From a virus (lineage: Duplodnaviria > Caudoviricetes): a DNA stretch of 64,000 bases. Position numbers and translations under genes: made by a program. The notes beneath the pieces are model-generated. The model did no database searches. It saw only the letters and a program-made list of their open reading frames with translations, and was not told the origin of the DNA. The stretch covers positions 1 through 64,000 of the IMG/VR virus record IMGVR_UViG_2887863138_000003, one strand, 5' to 3'. Shown one piece after another: positions 4,329 to 60,403 of the stretch; position 1 is the stretch's first letter, and every line of letters begins with the position of its first letter.

Positions 4329-6019
4329 TTAGAAACTGAAATTCCCCGATAAGATATGTGCGTTTAAATCCGCTTTCGGGTCTTTACACATTACCCTTAC
4401 ATGTGCGTTTATCGCTGACGCTATCGGGTCGATCCGATCCGTAGATTTAGACTTGTCCAGCATAATATTTTCCTGGGCGTCCATCTTGGTTACTGCGTTT
4501 CCAATTGACCATTCTAGAACAGGGTTCTTGTCGTGTAGAACCTTCTTTTCCAAAACCATTTCTCTAAAATTCTTTGTTGGTTCTGATAGAGTACGCACCC
4601 CTTGCCTAATTTCAATCATGGTATAGCCTTCTGCCTCCATATCAGCAGCGAATTGCGTTGCATTGTATGGATCGTAACAAACTTCTTTGATTTTCCATTC
4701 CTTATCACGCTCCATGCGCTGAATATACGCCTTAATAAACGTGTAATCCACAACAGCACCAGGAGTGGCCGTCATCCATCCTTGCTGGATATATAGATCA
4801 TAGGGGAATCTATCTGTTTTTCGTTTGACTGCCAACGTATCTTCCGGCATAAACGAATGATTTAAGATAGCAATGTGGTCATTTTTTAGATCAAATTCAA
4901 ATGACACACTGGTTAAGTCAATTTTTTTAGACAGGTCAATACCAACGATACATTCGAATTGGGCAAGATTAGGCATTTCATCAACGCCACATTTGGCCCA
5001 AGCCTCCAGTGACATATACCCGTTTTCTTTCTGATCTACCCACCGATTCATATTTTTGGTTAAGTAGTTTCGCATCTTCTCTGGTACGTCTAAAGCTGCT
5101 TTAAGCTCGCCACGCAAATAAGCCATACCCTCTTCATATGAACATAGGATCGGATTGGCTTTTATCCAGACAGATTCATCTTTGATATCATCGTCCTTGT
5201 CAAGTTCGTTGACCATTACGAAATATTCCTCATTTTCTATGGATGAATAAGGATCAAGGAAGCTGGCATCATTGATGAGTATCACGCCCACCCTACTTCT
5301 GAAATTTATGACGTGCTTGTGTCGGGTATGGGCGCACGTAGTCAACCGTTAATGATGATTATTACAACAGCAGGATTCAACCTGCACCACCCTTGCTATA
5401 GTGTGGAATACTGAGTATATTCCGAATATTACGTTAAAACCGTCACCCGTTTTTCCTGCATCCTTTGATAGAGCAGCGATAAAAGATTCACTTTTGAGAT
5501 GCTGTATTTTTCCGTAGGCTACTTTGAACTTACCATTTAGATCGGGGCAACCATCAATTTGCGTTCGTGATTCATTCCAGACAATTTTACTTTGCTCGGC
5601 TTTGGTAGCTCCGATGTAGACCTCTGACATGTTTTCACCGAAAGCAGAGGCTTCATAGCTTGCCACAGCTCCCAAAGATTGCGATTTAGCATTTTTCCTT
5701 CCTACCTGCCAATACGCTTTGCGAAAACGCCGTAGACCTGTATCCTTATGCACCCATCCATAAATGTTCCCAAAGACAAATACTTGGATTTCATGAGGGG
5801 TTATTCGTTTACCAGCAAGCTTTCCTTTCGTATGTCTGAATAAAGACATCCAATATAAAAAACGATGTGCTTTTTCCTCGTCAAAAATATAAGAAAAATG
5901 TTCCGTCCCCTCATTCTTGATATCATCCAGGAAACGGCTACACGCCCATTTGTGCTTCTCACAAGCAACTATCTCACCAGCTACGATATCAAGACTATAG
6001 TCAATTAGTGTTTAATCAT
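4329..6019 (-). pseudogene. terL: Terminase large subunit, frameshifted at the 5' end and internally inverted (~5260-5430)
   Basis: Walker A VGRKNAKS on the minus strand; the Walker B segment GIIDEYHAHPTSEIYDVLVSGMGARSQPLMMIITTAG reads on the plus strand; nuclease half GIDLSKKIDLT...DRIDPIAS on the minus strand. Confidence 0.9.
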
Positions 6020-35451: not shown

Positions 35452-36549
35452 GTGTTTTTTTTGAAAAGATATTTTTTAATTTCACTAACCTTGTCAAGTG
35501 TTATATGTAGTTCTTTCTTTTCTCCTAACGCAGTCGTCCATGCAAAGAACAGCGAATATGAGTTACATACTACAAAAAAAGATTTTGAAAGAGCTTTAAA
35601 AAAGAATGGTGTTGCCTTTATAGATACTGAACTAGTTCCACTGGAAACTATAGACAGTTATTATGATAGTGAAGATGAGGGAACGAAGAAGTTACAATCT
35701 TTTAAATCAAATGAAAACCCTTCTTTACACGTTGATGAAAAGCCTACTTCTAAGATTGATTCGTACGGGTTAATTCAAGATGGAGATAAAGAAATACCTG
35801 TTTATATCATAAGTCCAATTGATACGGTAATGCCGAAAAATATGAATAAACAAGATATCATTGAAAAAGTAATTAAAGCTGCTTTAGATAATTATTATGC
35901 TAAAGAGAAGGAAGAGAAGACAGATAATCCCCCTAATAGTCTAGTTCCGTTTGCTATGGGAACCTATGAACCAAAAGCTTCCGCACTTAAAGTAAATCAT
36001 GCTTGGTCTACTAATGATTCTTATTGGTTAACTATGTATAGAGTATATGAAGCTCCACGTTCAGGTTCAAATGTTTATACATTTATGCAAGCTGATCATG
36101 AGTATCTGGGCCCGACTAAAGGGAATAACAGAATTATACCATGGACATTTAAAACTCAATGGATAGCTAGATATGATGGATTGATGCATAAACCACAGCC
36201 TCAGAGCATAAAAGGAGACAGTGACATGTCTATAGCTATTAATAAATATATTACTTTGTCAGCTGATTTCATTTCAGCTTTGACACTGAAACATGAGTTT
36301 TCCATGTCAACTAATCACGCTGTATGGACAATGTACCCCTATAATTTTGCTGCCTTCCGAAAAGGTTTTCAATTCTCACAAGGAGCATACATTGATAAAG
36401 GGGCTGATTGGAATTCTGTTAACCTCCAAGTATGGGATGAATTTTGGCTGACTCATAGTACTGGTTCAAATTCTGCTGACTTACAACATAAATATAATGT
36501 GAAATATTTCTATAAAGACGACAGATTAAGACTTACGACTAAAGAATAA
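35452..36549 (+). CDS. Secreted hypothetical protein (AT-rich moron)
   Basis: Signal peptide ending NAVVHA; 365 aa; opposite strand to the phage core. Confidence 0.75.
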   Translation: MFFLKRYFLISLTLSSVICSSFFSPNAVVHAKNSEYELHTTKKDFERALKKNGVAFIDTELVPLETIDSYYDSEDEGTKKLQSFKSNENPSLHVDEKPTSKIDSYGLIQDGDKEIPVYIISPIDTVMPKNMNKQDIIEKVIKAALDNYYAKEKEEKTDNPPNSLVPFAMGTYEPKASALKVNHAWSTNDSYWLTMYRVYEAPRSGSNVYTFMQADHEYLGPTKGNNRIIPWTFKTQWIARYDGLMHKPQPQSIKGDSDMSIAINKYITLSADFISALTLKHEFSMSTNHAVWTMYPYNFAAFRKGFQFSQGAYIDKGADWNSVNLQVWDEFWLTHSTGSNSADLQHKYNVKYFYKDDRLRLTTKE

Positions 36550-36576
36550 ACCTTTATATTTTTCTGGAGGTAAATT

Positions 36577-36753
36577 TTGAAAATACTTATATTTGTACTA
36601 TGTTTGATGATTTTTACTATTAATTCTTATCTTTATATTTTTGTGAGTAGTTTAGAAAGAAATCATCACTCCACAGAAACCCAAAGCATATTTTATTTAA
36701 TTAATATCGTGCTTCTTTTCTTGGTTGTTCAGACAAATAAAAAATATAAGTAA
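36577..36753 (+). CDS. Small 2-TM protein, 58 aa (not in ORF track), possible immunity partner
   Basis: GGAGG RBS, TTG start, MKILIFVLCLMIFTINSYLYIFV...FYLINIVLLFLVVQTNKKYK*. Confidence 0.65.
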   Translation: MKILIFVLCLMIFTINSYLYIFVSSLERNHHSTETQSIFYLINIVLLFLVVQTNKKYK

Positions 36754-36804
36754 TAGTAAAGTTATATTTTGTGATCGTAAATTCTAGAATATCGAAATGA
36801 CCTT

Positions 36805-36840
36805 AACTGACGACTAATGAATTTAGGCGTCAGTTTTTTA
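36805..36840. terminator. Terminator between the moron operon and the micropeptide cluster
   Basis: AACTGACG-loop-CGTCAGTT-TTTTA. Confidence 0.6.
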
Positions 36841-36974
36841 TTCCATCATCCTACCACTTTCTGCATAGAGGCGGCCTGTTCCTCGTCAATTCCGAATATT
36901 CTAGCGCTCGTAGCCCAAAAGGTCGGATTACCAGCGCCAGCCACGTCCTCAGACGCGGTTGGTCTTTGATACGA

Positions 36975-37013
36975 TTAGTAACCGGGATTGTCCGTCCAAT
37001 CTGGTTCCGTCAT
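36975..37013 (-). CDS. Micropeptide 3, MTEPDWTDNPGY (12 aa)
   Basis: AAAGGAG RBS 8 nt before ATG; paralogous to its two neighbours with synonymous codon differences. Confidence 0.75.
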   Translation of the reverse strand: MTEPDWTDNPGY

Positions 37014-37032
37014 AAATAATACACTCCTTTGT

Positions 37033-37071
37033 TTAATAGCCGGGATCATCGGGCCATTCTGGATCAGTCAT
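37033..37071 (-). CDS. Micropeptide 2, MTDPEWPDDPGY (12 aa)
   Basis: AAGGAGG RBS 9 nt before ATG. Confidence 0.75.
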   Translation of the reverse strand: MTDPEWPDDPGY

Positions 37072-37090
37072 GTCGCGTAGCCTCCTTGTA

Positions 37091-37171
37091 CTAATGGCCG
37101 GGATTATCAACCCAGTTAGGGTCTGTGCAGCATTTCCACTCCGGAAAGCTCTCGAAAACTATCTTCATCAT
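37091..37171 (-). CDS. Micropeptide 1, MMKIVFESFPEWKCCTDPNWVDNPGH (26 aa)
   Basis: AAGGAGGTG RBS; the last 11 residues align with micropeptides 2 and 3. Confidence 0.72.
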   Translation of the reverse strand: MMKIVFESFPEWKCCTDPNWVDNPGH

Positions 37172-37253
37172 ATCCACCTCCTTGCCTACACTTTTCGACA
37201 AGAAGATTTCCGATTCCTTCCAAATATACAAAAAGCCGCCGGTTTTCCGACGA

Positions 37254-37340
37254 CTAATTGCGATTTTTCACGGCTTGTACTAACGCGGCGATCGAGATGA
37301 CCAACGCTACCACCGCGATTACCAATGTAATAGTTTCCAC
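37254..37340 (-). CDS. Small hydrophobic peptide (type I toxin-like), METITLVIAVVALVISIAALVQAVKNRN
   Basis: GGAGG RBS, GTG start, one TM helix with basic tail, followed by a hairpin + T-run. Confidence 0.68.
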   Translation of the reverse strand: METITLVIAVVALVISIAALVQAVKNRN

Positions 37341-37392
37341 GGTTCCAACGCCTCCGTTGACTATCGTACATAATCGAGGGTATGATTGGAAT

Positions 37393-37482
37393 AAGATAAT
37401 GGGGAGGGCAGGGACCCGTTAGGCTCCCATACCCGTCTGTTGACCGACCTCTTACGCCGCTAACGTAAGGGGTCTTTACTTT
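37393..37482 (+). ncRNA. Candidate antitoxin sRNA (~90 nt)
   Basis: TTGACT-18-TATGAT promoter (37357-37386); ends in hairpin GACCTCTTACG..CGTAAGGGGTC-TTT shared with the convergent peptide gene. Confidence 0.5.
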
Positions 37483-37580
37483 AGGTTCCGACCGTTGCTG
37501 TTTCGCCTGCCAATGCGGTAGTTGACTATCGCAGTTGCCAAGTTTACCAGCGCGGTCACCAGAAGCACGACCTCCACCAT
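37476..37580 (-). CDS. Small hydrophobic peptide (type I toxin-like), MVEVVLLVTALVNLATAIVNYRIGRRNSNGRNLK
   Basis: AAGGAGG RBS; TTGTCA-17-TATCCT promoter upstream; TM helix plus basic tail. Confidence 0.7.
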   Translation of the reverse strand: MVEVVLLVTALVNLATAIVNYRIGRRNSNGRNLK

Positions 37581-37685
37581 TACCCGTCCTCCTTCTCATT
37601 TACTGGAAGGTATGGAAATCACACCCTCTACAAGAAGGATAACACGTTCCGTTAAACGTGACAATAACAAATGGAGTTGTTCGCG

Positions 37686-37898
37686 ATGAAAATACATATT
37701 AAACTAGCCGATCTACTCAAAGAACGTGGAATCTCGCAACGAGAACTCGCACGCCTGACGGGTATACGTGTCTCGTCAATCAACGAAATGTGCAACAATG
37801 ATACAGTACGACTACCACTCGATAACCTTGCGAAGATATGCCAAGTGCTTGGCGTTGAGATTACGGATGTGCTCGAACTTATAGATGAACGTCTCTAG
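37686..37898 (+). CDS. XRE/Cro-C1 HTH regulator
   Basis: LADLLKERGISQRELARLTGIRVSSINEMCNN...LAKICQVLGVEITDVL. Confidence 0.88.
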   Translation: MKIHIKLADLLKERGISQRELARLTGIRVSSINEMCNNDTVRLPLDNLAKICQVLGVEITDVLELIDERL

Positions 37899-37934
37899 CA
37901 TGCATAGATACGAAATCCTCCGAAAGTAAACCCC

Positions 37935-38390
37935 TTACGCAATAAAATAGCTCTTGACTTCGCTCGCCTTTATGTCTTTCGCGTACTGTTCTTGTCTCGC
38001 CTTATTGCGTATCTTAGCGTTGTTATCTACGAATTGCATTTCGTAAGGGCTGCGTCTTCTGCGCGAAGGTTTCCGGTAAGAGATTCCGTCCGTCCCTGTA
38101 TCCTCTACTATTTTAAGCGAGGTCTCACCGCCCATACCGGAACCTCGTCGCTTGTGTTTTCCGAGTGTTCGGCGGGCGTATTGTGTCGCAGATAGGATCG
38201 GATATTCGTGGTGGGTCATTTTATGCTCGTCGTTGTCCGTAAGCTCCTCGTGTAGGATCGCGTCTGTCAAGCGTTCAAGTTCGGCGGGCTTAGGTCGGTC
38301 ACCAGTTTGTGAAATAAAATCGTCAATCCATGCGCTGATTGTTGCGATACGATCCATTCGTTCCATTCGGGTTAAAACTAACGTGTCCAT
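37935..38390 (-). CDS. Phage hypothetical protein
   Basis: RBS GGAGG; 151 aa; co-oriented. Confidence 0.7.
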   Translation of the reverse strand: MDTLVLTRMERMDRIATISAWIDDFISQTGDRPKPAELERLTDAILHEELTDNDEHKMTHHEYPILSATQYARRTLGKHKRRGSGMGGETSLKIVEDTGTDGISYRKPSRRRRSPYEMQFVDNNAKIRNKARQEQYAKDIKASEVKSYFIA

Positions 38391-38632
38391 TCGGATTCCT
38401 CCCCAGAAAGTAGATGCTTGATTGCGGTTTCAGCACTAGAAGAATCGTCGATCCCTCGGTAATTTGCAAACGTAAAAGTGCCGGTTAATGACGATCCATC
38501 CCTAAACCAAACGGAGGCACCCACTTCTTCACACGGGTACGTACGCTCAGAAATATAGAAAGGCTCCCTTCTCTTAGAGAAGTCAGTTTCTACCGTACGT
38601 TTAATGCTATGAATCAATATTTTATCTAACAT
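38378..38632 (-). CDS. Phage hypothetical protein
   Basis: RBS GAGGAGG; coupled to neighbours. Confidence 0.65.
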   Translation of the reverse strand: MLDKILIHSIKRTVETDFSKRREPFYISERTYPCEEVGASVWFRDGSSLTGTFTFANYRGIDDSSSAETAIKHLLSGEESEWTR

Positions 38633-39000
38633 TAAGCCGCCTCCTCACCGTAATTCCACGCCTCATAGATTGTCGCAACTTGATCTAATCCATTTCCTAC
38701 TAGTTGTCCTACGCGCTGTTTACTTACACCCATCGCCTGTCCAGTCTCAACCGTATATAACTCCCGTTCATACACGTAATACAACGCTTCACGCTCCCGA
38801 TCCGTCAGCCCCGCCCGTTCGATCGCCTCCGCCAAATCAATCAGCACGTCACACGCCGCGTAGTCGCCCCGTTCGAACCGGCTTGACCGTAAATGGTGGA
38901 TATCGCGTAGGATTGCGTGTACGCCGTCACGGTCATTTAACGCGTACCTTACGGAAAGATTTCGGTGCCCTTTTTCGATATCTACAGCACATGCGCCCAT
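38632..39000 (-). CDS. Sigma-70 region 4-type HTH protein, probable late-gene activator
   Basis: LTDREREALYYVY...TGQAMGVSKQRVGQLV. Confidence 0.72.
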   Translation of the reverse strand: MGACAVDIEKGHRNLSVRYALNDRDGVHAILRDIHHLRSSRFERGDYAACDVLIDLAEAIERAGLTDREREALYYVYERELYTVETGQAMGVSKQRVGQLVGNGLDQVATIYEAWNYGEEAA

Positions 39001-39757
39001 TAAGCCGCCTCCCTTAGTTGTGCAATCCGTTGGTTCGCGATATCAGCGTACTTTGACTCCGTTTCAAATCCGATAAATTTACGCCCGGCGCTTATTGCTG
39101 CTACCGCGGTTGTACCGGAGCCCATGCAGTTGTCGAGGACGATTTCGCCAGGATTCGTGTACGTTCGGATAAGGTATTCGAAAAGGGCAACGGGCTTCTG
39201 TGTTGGGTGGACTGATTCGTTACTGCTATTAGCATTGCTGAATGTCAATAGATTTTTTGGGTACCATTTGTCATAGACCTTTTCTTCGAGATTTGATTTC
39301 TCACCGCCCATGATTTCGGTCCGTTTATATTCTCTAGTTTTTCTTTTCTCAATCTTGTCGGGTGGACGTTCAACCATGATCGGGTAGTAATTAACCTTAC
39401 CCTTGCCAAAAACACATATATCCTCGGTTTGCTGCATAGGGCGGTGTTTGGCTACCAAATGCCCCCTAGCTGTCACTTTGTCCCATACCCATGAATACTG
39501 CTCATCACCAACGCGCTTGTAAACGGCTGGGTTGCCGTCAATATGATCGCCCCATTGTCCTTTATGATACGCTTGTATTGCTCCCACAACGTTTCAAACG
39601 GAATGACCGTGTCCCACTTGCACCGGGTCGTCCCATACGGTAGATCGCACAAGATCATATCTACGCTCCCATCCGGAATCATCCGCATCCCCTCGATACA
39701 ATCGCGCTGATATATCCGATTTAACTCGATCTCTCCGAGTAGTTTCTTTTCCGCCAT
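39000..39757 (-). pseudogene. N4/N6 DNA methyltransferase (beta class), frameshifted near 39500
   Basis: DCIEGM..DMILCDLPYG in one frame; WVWDK, HPTQKPVAL, VLDNCMGSGTT in another. Confidence 0.88.
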
Positions 39758-39889
39758 CAAACCGCCTCCTTCATTTCGCGTATGATACACGGTAATAAAC
39801 GCCTGCCTAACGCGCTTATTAACGGTATTATCTTCCAATCTACCGTTGAATGACGTATACTTGCGTTAAATAAACGGTTAACGATCGGA

Positions 39890-58932: not shown

Positions 58933-59076
58933 CTACCAACCTCCTCCAACTATTCTGGAAGTTACATATGCGACGCTCTCTTCTGATCCATTATCATAAG
59001 TAAACTGTTCTGCCTGTGTTGGCTGAGTAAATAAAACGGAGACAATTGCTACTAAAGTAACCATAAATGCTTTCAT
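58933..59076 (-). CDS. Secreted signalling pro-peptide (AimP/Phr-like), 47 aa (not in ORF track)
   Basis: MKAFMVTLVAIVSVLFTQPTQA-EQFTYDNGSEESVAYVTSRIVGGGW*; starts 1 nt after the receptor stop. Confidence 0.85.
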   Translation of the reverse strand: MKAFMVTLVAIVSVLFTQPTQAEQFTYDNGSEESVAYVTSRIVGGGW

Positions 59077-59077
59077 T

Positions 59078-60403
59078 CTAATTCGCCCCTTTTAAAATAT
59101 TCAAATATCTATGTTCAACGTCCTCTCCTAAAATAGCCTTATGTTCGAAGAGGATCGCGGACATTTTTTGATATACGGAAATATCTCTGAACTCTAGTGC
59201 TGTCTTAATGACCTCAAGAACATCGTTGAATGCTTCTTTATACTGCTCCATAGCTAGATAATACTGTAATCTAACAACTTGAAAATTATAAAACTGACTC
59301 TTATTGTACTTATCCTTCTTTAATGCGACTGACTCAAAGATTGTGTTATATTTCTCTAAAAAAACACCAATTCTCTCTAGCTGTCCGTTTGAAAGTAATA
59401 TCTTCAGCGCGTATGGAGCTACCGTAATAATTTCATGTTCGCGATTCTTATCTACAACCAGTCGGATAAACTCACTTACCGCTTCTAGCTTACCTTCCAT
59501 TACTTCGATTAACTTTTCATTCGACAACGCCGCCCAACGGTAATAATCACCTAGGTTGTGGCATTCCCGGAGAAGTTCTGCCGCCTTTCTGAGTTCACCC
59601 ATTCCTATTAAACTTGCTGCTTGGTAAAGAAGCGACTCCCCTAGATGTTTAATATCTTTGGCGTCCTTTGCCTCTTTGTAGTACGCATCTGCTACAACAG
59701 AAAGTTCCTCCCACTCTTTGGTAACATTATACCAAGTAACGACACGATAGTATCCATCTAACTGTAGATTTACTGTTTCTGCAACACCATTTTTTTGAAT
59801 GGGATATTCTGTCGGCAGATCGTTCAATACTGCTCGTAATTTATGTAATGCTTCTACACCCTTCTTACGCATATCTCGATCGCGTTCAATCAAGAAAATT
59901 CGATGGCAGCAAATCGCATACCTTTCTGATATTTTCTTTTCGATGTTTGTAATTGCGTAATACACAGACGCGGCCTCTGCTAGAAAGCCGTAACCGAAAA
60001 GTGCCTCTGCCAAAGTTAAGGCGGTGGACATATCCTTTATATCTATTGTTTCCAAGAATAACTCGACTACTTTACTGCAATGACTGACACCTTGCTTACA
60101 GTGAGAGCATGCCTTAATAAAGTCTGTTACTTTGGGAAGAGAAACTTTGGACGAGTCCTTGAAAAGCTCTCCATAAATCATTCCATAAAAAAAATCGTCG
60201 TCTAGTCTGAACACGTGTGTCAATAAATCTACCTGGTCCATCGTAATCGCTTGCTTGTTCTTCATAATATAAGAAAGCGATTGGGGAGAGATATACAACA
60301 ATTTAGCTAGGTCTCTTTGACTAAGATTATGTGAATGCATTTGGATTAGTATTTCTTCCCTTAATTTAAGACGATAATAAGTCAAGTCACTGGTGTCGAT
60401 CAT
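59078..60403 (-). CDS. HTH-TPR peptide receptor (RRNPP, AimR-like)
   Basis: N-terminal XRE HTH (LSQRDLAKLLYISPQSLSYIM) followed by ~370 aa of all-helical TPR-like sequence, adjacent to a signal-peptide ORF. Confidence 0.82.
   Translation of the reverse strand: MIDTSDLTYYRLKLREEILIQMHSHNLSQRDLAKLLYISPQSLSYIMKNKQAITMDQVDLLTHVFRLDDDFFYGMIYGELFKDSSKVSLPKVTDFIKACSHCKQGVSHCSKVVELFLETIDIKDMSTALTLAEALFGYGFLAEAASVYYAITNIEKKISERYAICCHRIFLIERDRDMRKKGVEALHKLRAVLNDLPTEYPIQKNGVAETVNLQLDGYYRVVTWYNVTKEWEELSVVADAYYKEAKDAKDIKHLGESLLYQAASLIGMGELRKAAELLRECHNLGDYYRWAALSNEKLIEVMEGKLEAVSEFIRLVVDKNREHEIITVAPYALKILLSNGQLERIGVFLEKYNTIFESVALKKDKYNKSQFYNFQVVRLQYYLAMEQYKEAFNDVLEVIKTALEFRDISVYQKMSAILFEHKAILGEDVEHRYLNILKGAN

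What the first reader, a model, noticed from the sequence alone, without database searches (positions are those of the whole stretch)
36975..37200. Tandem array of three micropeptide genes sharing T-[DE]-P-x-W-x-D-[DN]-P-G-[YH]-COOH
The minus strand encodes MMKIVFESFPEWKCCTDPNWVDNPGH, MTDPEWPDDPGY and MTEPDWTDNPGY. Each has its own strong RBS (AAGGAGGTG, AAGGAGG, AAAGGAG) and stop. Conservation is at the codon level: ACA/ACT/ACG for Thr, CCT/CCA for Pro, GAT/GAC, GGC/GGT, TAT/TAC, TAG/TAA, with unrelated spacers. That pattern indicates selection on peptide sequence and on a free C-terminus. No signal peptide or modifying enzyme is nearby, so they should act in the cytoplasm. A TGTCGAA Spo0A-type box (37194-37200) sits just upstream. 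Hypotheses (inference): ready-made ligands or decoys for TPR/RRNPP receptors, jamming arbitrium, Rap or quorum sensing without export; inhibitors of a host defence or protease; or leaderless W-x-D RiPP substrates modified in trans. I know no described system with this architecture, and all three are invisible to normal ORF callers.
Basis: partly seen in the sequence, partly recalled or inferred. Interest (0 to 1): 0.9.

Follow-up and report, generated by a model that had tools for sequence, protein, structure and literature searches.

The report
Leaderless copies of rival phage signals
A prophage of the insect- and beehive-associated bacterium Brevibacillus laterosporus carries a row of tiny genes (12 to 26 codons) whose products are built from the same 5-6-residue 'words' that other phages and mobile elements of this species secrete to talk to their own receptors, but without any export signal, which suggests that the prophage counterfeits its rivals' messages inside the cell.

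Summary
Three micro-ORFs lie on the minus strand at 37171-37091, 37071-33 and 37013-36975, each with its own SD, ATG and stop. They belong to a family of 12 arrays (3-7 units each, 57 units in all), all in B. laterosporus (pro)phages.

Selection acts on the peptides. pN/pS is 0.38 in frame against 0.92 and 1.26 out of frame. Spacers are fixed at 16-21 nt.

The decisive result is that the peptides are concatenations of mature signal 'tails'. These are the tails of secreted propeptides that sit beside HTH-TPR (RRNPP-type) receptors in other phages and mobile elements of the same species.
- P3 = Met + TEPDW + TDNPGY (the second unit is phage Sundance's signal).
- P2 = Met + TDPEW + P + DDPGY (the last unit is SecTim467's signal).
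- P1 contains SFPEW.

Ten of 18 distinct signal tails recur exactly in the micropeptides; shuffled peptides give a mean of 0.085. The matching codons differ synonymously. The carriers' own signals (IVGGGW, NVGEHG) never appear in arrays. The window's provirus has no receptor for the copied signals.

Best reading (inference, about 0.6): cytoplasmic, export-free counterfeit ligands that switch rival receptors to their 'quorum reached' state. Expression and binding are untested. The scan had not recorded this on other DNA.

The parts
37234..37255 (-). Intrinsic terminator of the upstream 28-aa membrane-peptide gene. It isolates the array from upstream transcription.
   Evidence: 9-bp stem, T-run. 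The same terminator precedes 11 of 12 arrays.
37193..37220 (-). Conserved promoter-like element: GAAGGAATC (37220-37212), a 14-nt spacer, then CGAAA (37197-37193). It overlaps a perfect Spo0A-type box TGTCGAA (37200-37194).
   Evidence: Conserved in all 12 arrays. It occurs once only in the window. There is no sigma-70-type promoter between the terminator and P1. The fit to the sigma-H consensus RWAGGAXXT-14-HGAAT is from my own knowledge and was not tested.
37091..37171 (-). Micro-ORF P1 (26 aa plus TAG). It contains the units SFPEW, TDPNW and VDNPGH. SD AAGGAGGTG lies at 37183-37175.
   Evidence: SFPEW equals the tail of the secreted propeptide at L052 / P0015.
37033..37071 (-). Micro-ORF P2 (MTDPEWPDDPGY plus TAA) = Met + TDPEW + P + DDPGY. 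SD AAGGAGG lies at 37087-37081.
   Evidence: TDPEW is the tail of provirus G008's propeptide (P0013). DDPGY is the tail of phage SecTim467's propeptide.
36975..37013 (-). Micro-ORF P3 (MTEPDWTDNPGY plus TAA) = Met + TEPDW + TDNPGY. SD AAAGGAG lies at 37030-37024.
   Evidence: TEPDW is the tail of the L053 / P0014 / P0016 propeptides. TDNPGY is the last six residues of the phage Sundance / L039 / P0011 propeptide.
36846..36974 (-). Conserved roughly 130-nt element after the array, with a 17-bp hairpin (36940-36901). In other loci it ends in a second TGTCGAAAG...GAGGAGGTG copy and a variable 'cargo' gene. In the window the second copy is mutated (TGCAGAAAG) and no cargo gene follows.
   Evidence: No Rfam match.
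59078..60403 (-). The provirus's own HTH receptor (441 aa). Context only; probably not the target of the array.
   Evidence: Pfam HTH_3. Homologues occur in five of the other array carriers: G001-G004 and phage Emery and G009.
58933..59076 (-). The provirus's own secreted propeptide (47 aa, signal-peptide-like N-terminus, tail IVGGGW). Context only.
   Evidence: This tail is absent from all 51 distinct micropeptides.

Best explanation
The array is a translated operon of mini-genes. Their products are leaderless, head-to-tail copies of the mature signal peptides used by OTHER phages and mobile elements of B. laterosporus. Those elements run RRNPP-type (arbitrium/Alo-like) receptor-propeptide systems.

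Shown here: the peptides are under purifying selection; they are built from two unit types ([T/S]-x-P-x-W and x-D-[D/N]-P-G-[Y/H/F], plus GGIGW in other arrays); and these units are identical to the C-terminal tails of secreted propeptides next to HTH-TPR receptors elsewhere in the species.

Inferred mechanism: the array is transcribed from its own stationary-phase-type promoter (sigma-H-like, overlapping a Spo0A box). Each mini-ORF is translated from its own SD. The initiator Met is removed, since Thr or Ala is second in most 12-mers. The peptides act whole or after a cut behind the aromatic residue that ends each unit. They then occupy the TPR pockets of rival receptors in the same cytoplasm, with no secretion, extracellular processing or Opp import.

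By analogy with AimR and AloR13, where peptide binding shuts off the receptor-activated downstream gene, this would force a superinfecting or co-resident rival into its 'quorum reached' state. For temperate rivals that means lysogeny or no induction. For Sundance/SecTim467-type phages it means shut-off of their spo0E-like sporulation inhibitor. Either outcome protects the shared host and therefore the resident prophage.
For: (1) Translation and selection. There are 57 units in 12 arrays with retained SD, ATG (54/57) and stop, and 16-21-nt spacers. pN/pS is 0.38 in frame against 0.92 and 1.26 out of frame.
(2) Identity to signals. Propeptides were found through receptor genes, not through the motif. 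TDNPGY is in Sundance/L039. TDDPGY is in SecTim467. TDDPGH is in P0007. HGGIGW is in Emery, twice in its propeptide. TDPEW is in G008. TEPDW is in L053. SFPEW is in L052. VVDPGY is in L049. YDPGF is in L048. DDPQG is in L035, P0006, P0010 and P0012.
(3) Statistics. Ten of 18 distinct 5-residue tails occur exactly in micropeptides. Shuffled micropeptides give a mean of 0.085 and a maximum of 2 in 1000 trials. Of 666 control 5-mers from propeptide bodies only 2 match, and both are the internal second copy of Emery's signal.
(4) The matching units differ by 80 synonymous changes in 405 nt, including Ser TCT against AGC. Identity is therefore selected at the peptide level.
(5) The signals are foreign. 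No receptor of the DPGY/PEW family (A3) occurs in G000-G004, G006, G007, G009 or Emery. The own signals of the carriers with a known receptor (IVGGGW, NVGEHG, HGGIGW, ITDPEW) are absent from their own arrays.
(6) The targets are RRNPP-like. They have HTH_3 plus TPR. The fold matches PlcR-PapR, AimR, NprR and Rap at Z 15-19. A propeptide starts 0-15 nt after the receptor stop.
(7) Spo0E-like genes follow the Sundance, SecTim467 and L039 systems. AloR13 activates a spo0E-like gene and its 6-aa signal shuts it off (PMC7425212).
(8) Lysogen-made non-cognate arbitrium signals can push a superinfecting phage into lysogeny (bioRxiv 10.1101/2025.10.13.681967).
(9) Several matching receptors are on mobile elements: phages, IMG/VR proviruses, or with integrases 0.4-2.6 kb away.
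Against: There is no expression, peptide or binding evidence of any kind. The 12-mers are longer than typical 5-10-aa mature signals, and an N-terminal extension may prevent closure of a TPR pocket. Internal units need an unidentified endopeptidase to gain a free C-terminus. Short cytoplasmic peptides are usually degraded quickly. G008's own array carries one-residue variants of its own signal (TDPNW and TNPEW against TDPEW), so self-avoidance is only weakly supported (n is small and not significant). Type G (GGIGW) resembles the carriers' own IVGGGW, so an effect on the carrier's own receptor cannot be excluded. Both peptide sets follow one motif grammar, so some exact matches follow from shared ancestry alone. 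Agonist and antagonist action cannot be told apart from sequence.
Confidence: 0.6

Rival explanations
1. The peptides are real extracellular signals. They leave the cell through lysis, or through an unknown exporter such as the small membrane peptides that always flank the array. They are trimmed by the same extracellular proteases that cut propeptides after an aromatic residue and are imported by neighbouring cells. The phage thus 'broadcasts' in its rivals' languages instead of acting only in its own cytoplasm.
For: An aromatic residue (Y or F) precedes the final hexapeptide in natural propeptides, and W holds that place in the micropeptides. That fits shared processing. Leaderless secreted signals exist (LCP/SIP, PMC10518010). 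TM micro-proteins of 28-41 aa flank the arrays in the window, Emery, L005 and L015. The terminator that ends the 28-aa gene in the window precedes 11 of 12 arrays.
Against: There is no signal peptide and no ABC or PptAB-type exporter nearby. The peptides are acidic and hydrophilic (D 15%, net charge -2 to -6), unlike known leaderless exported signals. A stationary-phase promoter isolated by a terminator fits lysogen expression better than lysis-time release.
Confidence: 0.2
2. The peptides are competitive antagonists. The N-terminally extended or fused peptides occupy foreign receptors, or the carrier's own, without triggering the conformational switch. The receptor is then blind to the true signal, which is jamming and not spoofing.
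For: The sequence evidence is the same as for the best explanation. The fused two-unit format differs from free 5-6-mers. Many units are one-residue variants of known signals, as expected for binders that need not activate.
Against: Many units are exact copies of the signals, with correct free C-termini. Nothing in the sequence argues specifically for antagonism.
Confidence: 0.12
3. The act of translation, not the peptides, is what matters. On this view the tandem SD-led mini-ORFs form a ribosome-loaded 5' leader. It would stabilise the transcript or tune expression of the variable cargo gene downstream.
For: Most loci have a cargo gene after a conserved structured leader. Strong SDs lie close to the predicted 5' end.
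Against: Frame-specific purifying selection acts on the peptide sequences. The peptides are identical to foreign signals despite synonymous divergence. The window and L014 keep the array although the cargo gene is gone. A second promoter-like copy precedes the cargo gene.
Confidence: 0.04
4. The array is a store of signal cassettes used by recombination to change the specificity of a propeptide gene (pherotype switching), or it is debris of propeptide 3' ends. A leaderless RiPP substrate set is a further minor option.
For: Units shuffle, fuse and split between arrays.
Against: Silent cassettes or debris would not keep an SD, ATG, stop and a 16-21-nt spacer at every unit, nor show pN/pS of 0.38. 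There is no DNA-level identity to propeptide genes. No modifying enzyme is nearby.
Confidence: 0.04

Closest known systems
Arbitrium (AimR-AimP-AimX) and Alo (AloR-AloP) RRNPP communication systems of Bacillales phages and Paenibacillaceae
   Same: The micropeptide units are identical to the C-terminal 5-6 residues of secreted propeptides encoded directly after HTH-TPR receptors. In these families that is the position of the mature signal (PMC7425212). Some target systems are followed by a spo0E-like gene, as in Alo13 and as noted for phage Sundance (bioRxiv 10.1101/2021.07.15.452460).
   Different: There is no signal peptide. No cognate receptor lies next to the array or anywhere in the carrier. 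Several different signals are fused in one peptide. Three to seven mini-genes stand in tandem. The array has its own promoter, separate from any receptor gene.
Cross-talk or manipulation between arbitrium phages by non-cognate signals (bioRxiv 10.1101/2025.10.13.681967 and 10.1101/2025.10.13.681337)
   Same: The concept is shared: a resident prophage's peptide can push a superinfecting phage towards lysogeny and reduce induction.
   Different: In those studies the manipulating peptide is the phage's own ordinary secreted AimP, which happens to cross-react. Here a dedicated locus encodes a panel of foreign signals, distinct from the carrier's own, without export signals.
Leaderless communication peptides (SIP/LCP-RopB) and SHP-Rgg of streptococci and other Firmicutes (PMC10518010)
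   Same: Both are ultrashort SD-led ORFs without a classical leader that encode RRNPP-family ligands.
   Different: LCPs are 8-10 aa and highly hydrophobic. They are single genes beside their receptor, are secreted, and were not found in phages. These peptides are acidic, tandem, receptor-less and phage-borne.
Polycistronic smORF peptides pri/tal/mlpt of insects (my own knowledge, not checked here)
   Same: Both have one transcript with several tandem 11-12-codon ORFs that share a short C-terminal motif (there LDPTGxY).
   Different: The insect case is eukaryotic, has an unrelated function (a Ubr3/Svb switch) and shows no mimicry of other elements' signals. It is an analogy of architecture only.

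Membership tests
RRNPP signalling propeptide (AimP / AloP / Phr type) | N-terminal Sec-type signal sequence for export | tested here: not met
   The 12-mers have no room for one. No unit has a hydrophobic N-region, and composition is D 15%, P 11%, G 11%, W 9%. Genuine propeptides in the same species have K/R followed by a hydrophobic stretch.
RRNPP signalling propeptide (AimP / AloP / Phr type) | Gene lies directly beside its cognate HTH-TPR receptor | tested here: not met
   The neighbours are a 75-aa XRE, small TM peptides and a sigma-like protein. No A3-family receptor occurs anywhere in G000-G004, G006, G007, G009 or Emery.
RRNPP signalling propeptide (AimP / AloP / Phr type) | C-terminal 5-10 residues are the mature signal | tested here: met
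   This holds at sequence level only. C-termini and internal units equal the tails of 10 of 18 distinct natural propeptide tails.
RRNPP signalling propeptide (AimP / AloP / Phr type) | Secretion, extracellular processing, Opp import and binding to the receptor | not testable with these tools
   This needs peptidomics, reporters and binding assays.
Leaderless communication peptides (LCP/SIP-RopB, SHP-Rgg) | Ultrashort SD-led ORF without a leader | tested here: met
Leaderless communication peptides (LCP/SIP-RopB, SHP-Rgg) | Highly hydrophobic aliphatic/aromatic peptide next to a RopB/Rgg receptor | tested here: not met
   The peptides are acidic with net charge -2 to -6. No adjacent receptor exists. 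The LCP paper found none in phages.
RRNPP receptors (the proposed targets, A3 family: L034, L039, L035, L041, L046-L053, Sundance, SecTim467) | N-terminal HTH plus C-terminal TPR superhelix | tested here: met
   Pfam finds HTH_3 and TPR_14/TPR_2. The AF2 model has pLDDT 76.9 and is all-helical. The top Foldseek hit is PlcR-PapR7 and several AimR structures follow. VIA Z is 18.8 for NprR, 18.7 for RapI and 15.1 for AimR. Generic TPR proteins score equally, so the fold alone is not specific. No NCBIfam name applies.
RRNPP receptors (the proposed targets, A3 family) | Small secreted propeptide gene immediately downstream | tested here: met
RiPP precursor peptides | Modifying enzyme (rSAM, P450, cyclodehydratase and the like) in the gene cluster | tested here: not met
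   The seven neighbouring genes scanned within about 2.5 kb of the window array, and five cargo genes from other loci, gave no enzyme family in Pfam or PHROGs. The methyltransferase ORFs at 39000-39838 were not scanned.
Sigma-H-dependent / Spo0A-regulated promoter | Match to RWAGGAXXT-14-HGAAT and to the 0A box TGNCGAA | tested here: inconclusive
   GAAGGAWTT-14-CGAAA is conserved in 12 of 12 arrays and TGTCGAA in 9 of 12. The element is unique in the window and no sigma-70 promoter is present. The consensus sequences are from my own knowledge. No transcript data exist.

The most novel reading that the evidence does not exclude
Temperate phages can carry a private 'counterfeit signal arsenal'. 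This would be a fast-evolving tandem array of export-free mini-genes, each a chain of rival elements' quorum words. The peptides would be made directly in the cytoplasm to switch off the receptors of superinfecting or co-resident phages and mobile elements, blocking their lysis, induction or sporulation-hijack programmes. It would be a new class of inter-phage conflict system, and also the densest known cluster of functional 12-codon genes in a bacterial virus.
Probability: 0.5. Interest if true: 0.92.

Novelty: new variant of a known kind. Interest (0 to 1): 0.86.

Why it matters
Phage peptide communication has been treated as private, honest signalling, and only in 2025 did preprints show accidental cross-talk. 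A dedicated locus that manufactures rivals' signals without export would show that such communication is actively attacked. It would explain the pressure behind rapid diversification of signal-receptor pairs; one B. laterosporus genome gave 17 matches to the two receptor families. It would add a peptide-based layer to superinfection exclusion and prophage-prophage conflict.

The finding is also practical. All the genes are below the length cut-off of gene callers; in phage Emery, GenBank annotates the opposite strand. Similar arrays may therefore be hidden elsewhere. They can be searched for by matching micro-ORFs against the tails of RRNPP propeptides. The peptides are short enough to synthesise, and a suitable reporter design already exists in Voichek et al. 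2020, so the hypothesis is directly testable.

Tried and rejected
Searches and tools that gave nothing usable:
- RNA evidence: no RNA holder was listed for this stretch. Read laying was not used because the only RNA runs were oligo-dT libraries under another organism label.
- Rfam: no match in 36000-38500.
- A viral-contig scan with the conserved promoter/SD anchor gave no new loci.
- The search for related loci with the receptor alignment returned only phages already in hand.
- NCBIfam gave only sub-threshold HTH hits for the receptors.
- A PDB sequence search saw only HTH and weak TPR signals.
- Phage_portal Pfam found nothing in G005, so integrases were used instead.
- The sigma-H consensus could not be confirmed from the paper library.

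Ideas considered and dropped:
- One decayed long gene: the units are in mixed frames, each with its own SD, ATG and stop.
- DNA or RNA-level repeat: selection is frame-specific.
- Recurrent late promoter for the phage sigma-like protein: the motif is unique in the window.
- Small ORF in the downstream element: it is intact in 3 loci but interrupted by a stop in Emery and by a 2-nt deletion in the window.
- SSB C-terminal-tail mimic, ClpP IGF-loop mimic, TnaC-like arrest peptide and Ca-binding loop: these were resemblances from memory only, with no supporting data, and the exact signal matches superseded them.
- Self-avoidance as a statistical claim: the numbers are too small.

Full report
WHAT IS THERE. 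P1 is 26 aa at 37171-37091. P2 is MTDPEWPDDPGY at 37071-37033. P3 is MTEPDWTDNPGY at 37013-36975. Each has a strong SD 7-10 nt upstream and its own stop. The window is part of a 73-kb IMG/VR provirus. Its GC content is about 0.48-0.51, against about 0.35-0.40 in the flanks. An intrinsic terminator at 37255-37234 ends the preceding 28-aa membrane-peptide gene. No sigma-70-type promoter lies between that terminator and P1.

THE FAMILY. Brevibacillus phage Emery has the same locus with seven micro-ORFs. GenBank annotates two ORFs on the opposite strand there. A degenerate pattern for W-x-D-[DN]-P-G-[YH]-TAA found nine IMG/VR stretches, eight of which are homologous arrays. A 12-mer pattern scanned over one genome for each of 185,579 species hit only B. 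laterosporus, at two loci in one genome. A search of 5.8 billion proteins with the longest first unit found five 'hypothetical proteins', all from Brevibacillus. tblastn over 50,697 phage records found only Emery.

The 12 arrays hold 57 units of 11-48 aa, and recognisable unit types recur in the same relative order across arrays. Starts are ATG in 54 of 57 units. Stops are TAA 45, TAG 10 and TGA 2. Of 45 spacers, 43 are 16-21 nt, and the units sit in mixed frames. Units fuse and split between arrays. In L015, for example, one unit reads through the spacer into the next.

SELECTION IS ON THE PEPTIDES. Pairwise comparison within unit types gives differences by codon position of 627/372/1056. pN/pS is 0.21-0.53 per type and 0.37 overall. 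Recomputed with the frame control, it is 0.38 in frame, and the same columns read in the +1 and +2 frames give 0.92 and 1.26. This excludes a DNA- or RNA-level repeat. Together with the mixed frames it also excludes a single decayed gene.

FLANKS. All 12 arrays share GAAGGAWTT, 14 nt, CGAAA and then the first SD. Nine of the 12 have a perfect TGTCGAA. The motif occurs once only in the window. It fits the sigma-H consensus and the Spo0A box as I remember them; this is a lead, not a test.

Downstream lies a conserved element of about 130 nt with a 17-bp hairpin (window 36940-36901). The hairpin shows mostly G-C to G-U changes and one compensatory pair, and it has no Rfam match. In the other loci that keep the element, except L014, it ends in a second TGTCGAAAG...GAGGAGGTG copy followed by a variable gene: a 41-aa TM peptide in Emery and L005, and unrelated 67-, 94- and 225-aa proteins elsewhere. 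The window and L014 have lost that gene but kept the array.

The neighbours are a 75-aa XRE, two small TM peptides, a sigma-70-region-4 protein and proteins of unknown function. No enzyme family turned up.

THE KEY RESULT. The provirus has an HTH receptor (59078-60403) followed by a 47-aa propeptide with a signal-peptide-like N-terminus and the tail IVGGGW. Homologous receptors are present in five of the other array carriers: G001-G004, phage Emery and G009.

Reading the small ORF after each receptor gave the first surprise. Emery's propeptide carries HGGIGW twice and ends in it. The last unit in six other arrays ends in (D)HGGIGW or DGGIGW, yet five of those six carriers with a known receptor use IVGGGW themselves (the sixth, G008, uses ITDPEW).

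The species-representative B. laterosporus genome gave 8 matches to this receptor family and 9 to a second family, A3. The A3 family has HTH_3 plus TPR. Its AF2 model has pLDDT 76.9. Its best fold matches include PlcR-PapR7, AimR, NprR and Rap at Z 15-19, although generic TPR proteins score equally.

A3 receptors are followed within 0-15 nt by secreted propeptides. Their tails are DYDPGY, AYDPGY, VVDPGH, VYDPGF, VVDPGY, YSFPEW and ITEPDW. A3 homologues in phages give TDNPGY (Sundance and the Sundance-like L039), TDDPGY (SecTim467), RDDPQG (L035) and ITDPEW (provirus G008). Database relatives add TDDPGH and HDDPQG.

These are the building blocks of the micropeptides. P3 = Met + TEPDW + TDNPGY. 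P2 = Met + TDPEW + P + DDPGY. P1 contains SFPEW.

STATISTICS. The set has 25 propeptides with 18 distinct 5-residue tails.
- Ten tails occur exactly in the 51 distinct micropeptides.
- Five 6-residue tails occur exactly.
- Shuffled micropeptides give a mean of 0.085 matching tails, with a maximum of 2 in 1000 trials.
- Of 666 control 5-mers taken from propeptide bodies, two match, and both belong to the internal copy of Emery's signal.

The propeptides were reached through the receptor genes, not through the motif, so the comparison is unbiased. The matching units differ by 1-5 synonymous changes per 15 nt (80 of 405), including Ser TCT against AGC. The identity is therefore kept by selection on the peptide and not by recent copying.

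FOREIGN, NOT SELF. No A3 receptor exists in G000-G004, G006, G007, G009 or Emery. The tails IVGGGW, NVGEHG and the host's HG[VIM]GG types never occur in arrays. G008 does carry an A3 receptor, with signal ITDPEW. Its array has TDPNW and TNPEW but not TDPEW, although four other arrays have exact TDPEW. This is suggestive only.

Targets are often mobile. They include sequenced phages and IMG/VR proviruses. Integrase genes lie 0.4 kb from L046 and 2.6 kb from L053. In genome G005, array L015 contains SFPEW and VDPGY, the tails of the co-resident L052 and L049 systems.

MECHANISM (inference). In the Alo13 system the receptor activates a spo0E-like gene and the C-terminal 6-aa signal shuts it off (PMC7425212). 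In arbitrium the peptide inactivates AimR and favours lysogeny, and lysogen-made cross-reacting peptides push a superinfecting phage into lysogeny. Sundance, SecTim467 and L039 have a Spo0E-like gene (PF09388, E of 1e-10 to 1e-13) right after their receptor-propeptide pair. Sundance's locus has been read as a sporulation-hijack signature.

I therefore propose that the array supplies rivals' signals directly in the cytoplasm of the lysogen, probably from a stationary-phase promoter. Any such receptor arriving or residing in the cell would then be held in its peptide-bound state.

Every unit ends in an aromatic residue or His. Natural propeptides have Y or F just before the last hexapeptide. A single cut after the aromatic would therefore free two correct signals from a 12-mer. 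Removal of Met before Thr or Ala would free the first N-terminus (established MetAP specificity). None of these steps is shown.

RIVALS. Four alternatives remain: release and extracellular action, antagonism instead of agonism, a translation-only leader for the cargo gene, and cassette storage. Each is set out with its evidence above. The first two share the central claim that the peptides are ligands for foreign RRNPP receptors.

KNOWN OR NEW. The literature searches found RRNPP systems in Brevibacillus phages, leaderless hydrophobic LCPs (none in phages) and cross-talk between secreted arbitrium signals. They found no leaderless tandem array of foreign signals. The array fails two defining features of an RRNPP propeptide, the signal sequence and the adjacent receptor. 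It also fails two features of LCPs, hydrophobicity and the adjacent receptor. I file it as a new variant of peptide-based phage communication, with a substantial chance that it is a new kind of inter-phage conflict system.

Noticed in passing
window 36846-36974 (-); L001:4597-4751; L006:1011-1165; L008:10379-10533; L012:639-793: A conserved element of about 130 nt follows the array. It has a 17-bp hairpin and a second TGTCGAAAG...GAGGAGGTG copy, followed by a variable 'cargo' gene. That gene has been lost in the window and in L014. A 37-aa ORF across the element is intact in three loci but broken in Emery (stop) and in the window (2-nt deletion).
   Followed up: partly
window 37254-37340 (-) and 37476-37580 (-); L001:4747-4872: Small hydrophobic single-helix peptides (28, 34 and 41 aa) flank the arrays checked (window, Emery, L005, L015). 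They lie upstream in the window and L015 and downstream in Emery and L005. The terminator that ends the 28-aa gene in the window precedes 11 of 12 arrays. Their relation to the array (export? toxin?) is unknown.
   Followed up: no
L001 4077-4271 and 4355-4546 (KC595516.1 gp37, gp38): GenBank annotates two 63-64-aa ORFs on the strand opposite to Emery's seven micro-ORFs. These are probably spurious calls that mask the array.
   Followed up: partly
G005 (B. laterosporus MSSRFCCT15): L026-L033, L045-L053: One genome gave 17 matches to HTH-TPR receptor genes of two families, two of them short partial matches on one contig. Thirteen have a readable secreted propeptide downstream. This is an unusually dense set of peptide 'languages'.
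   Followed up: partly
L016:2769-2900; L020:2817-2975; L029: Several propeptides carry their presumed mature signal twice (HGGIGW twice, NVGEHG twice, DNGAKP / DNGARPK). This is a natural precedent for multi-unit peptides that need internal cleavage.
   Followed up: no
L015 about 5819-5966; L014 about 4513-5100: In L015 two micro-ORFs are fused by read-through of the spacer, including its SD, into one 48-aa peptide. L014 is a degenerate array with few intact units. Together they show birth, fusion and decay within the family.
   Followed up: partly
window 39000-39838 (-): Two overlapping ORFs (195 aa and 121 aa, in different frames) both cluster with the single 227-257-aa DNA methyltransferase of related phages. 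The gene looks frameshifted or split in this provirus.
   Followed up: no
window 37671-37898 (+): A 75-aa XRE/HTH_26 gene on the opposite strand lies within about 1 kb of the array in most loci. It is divergent in the window and convergent in Emery and L005. It may regulate the module.
   Followed up: no
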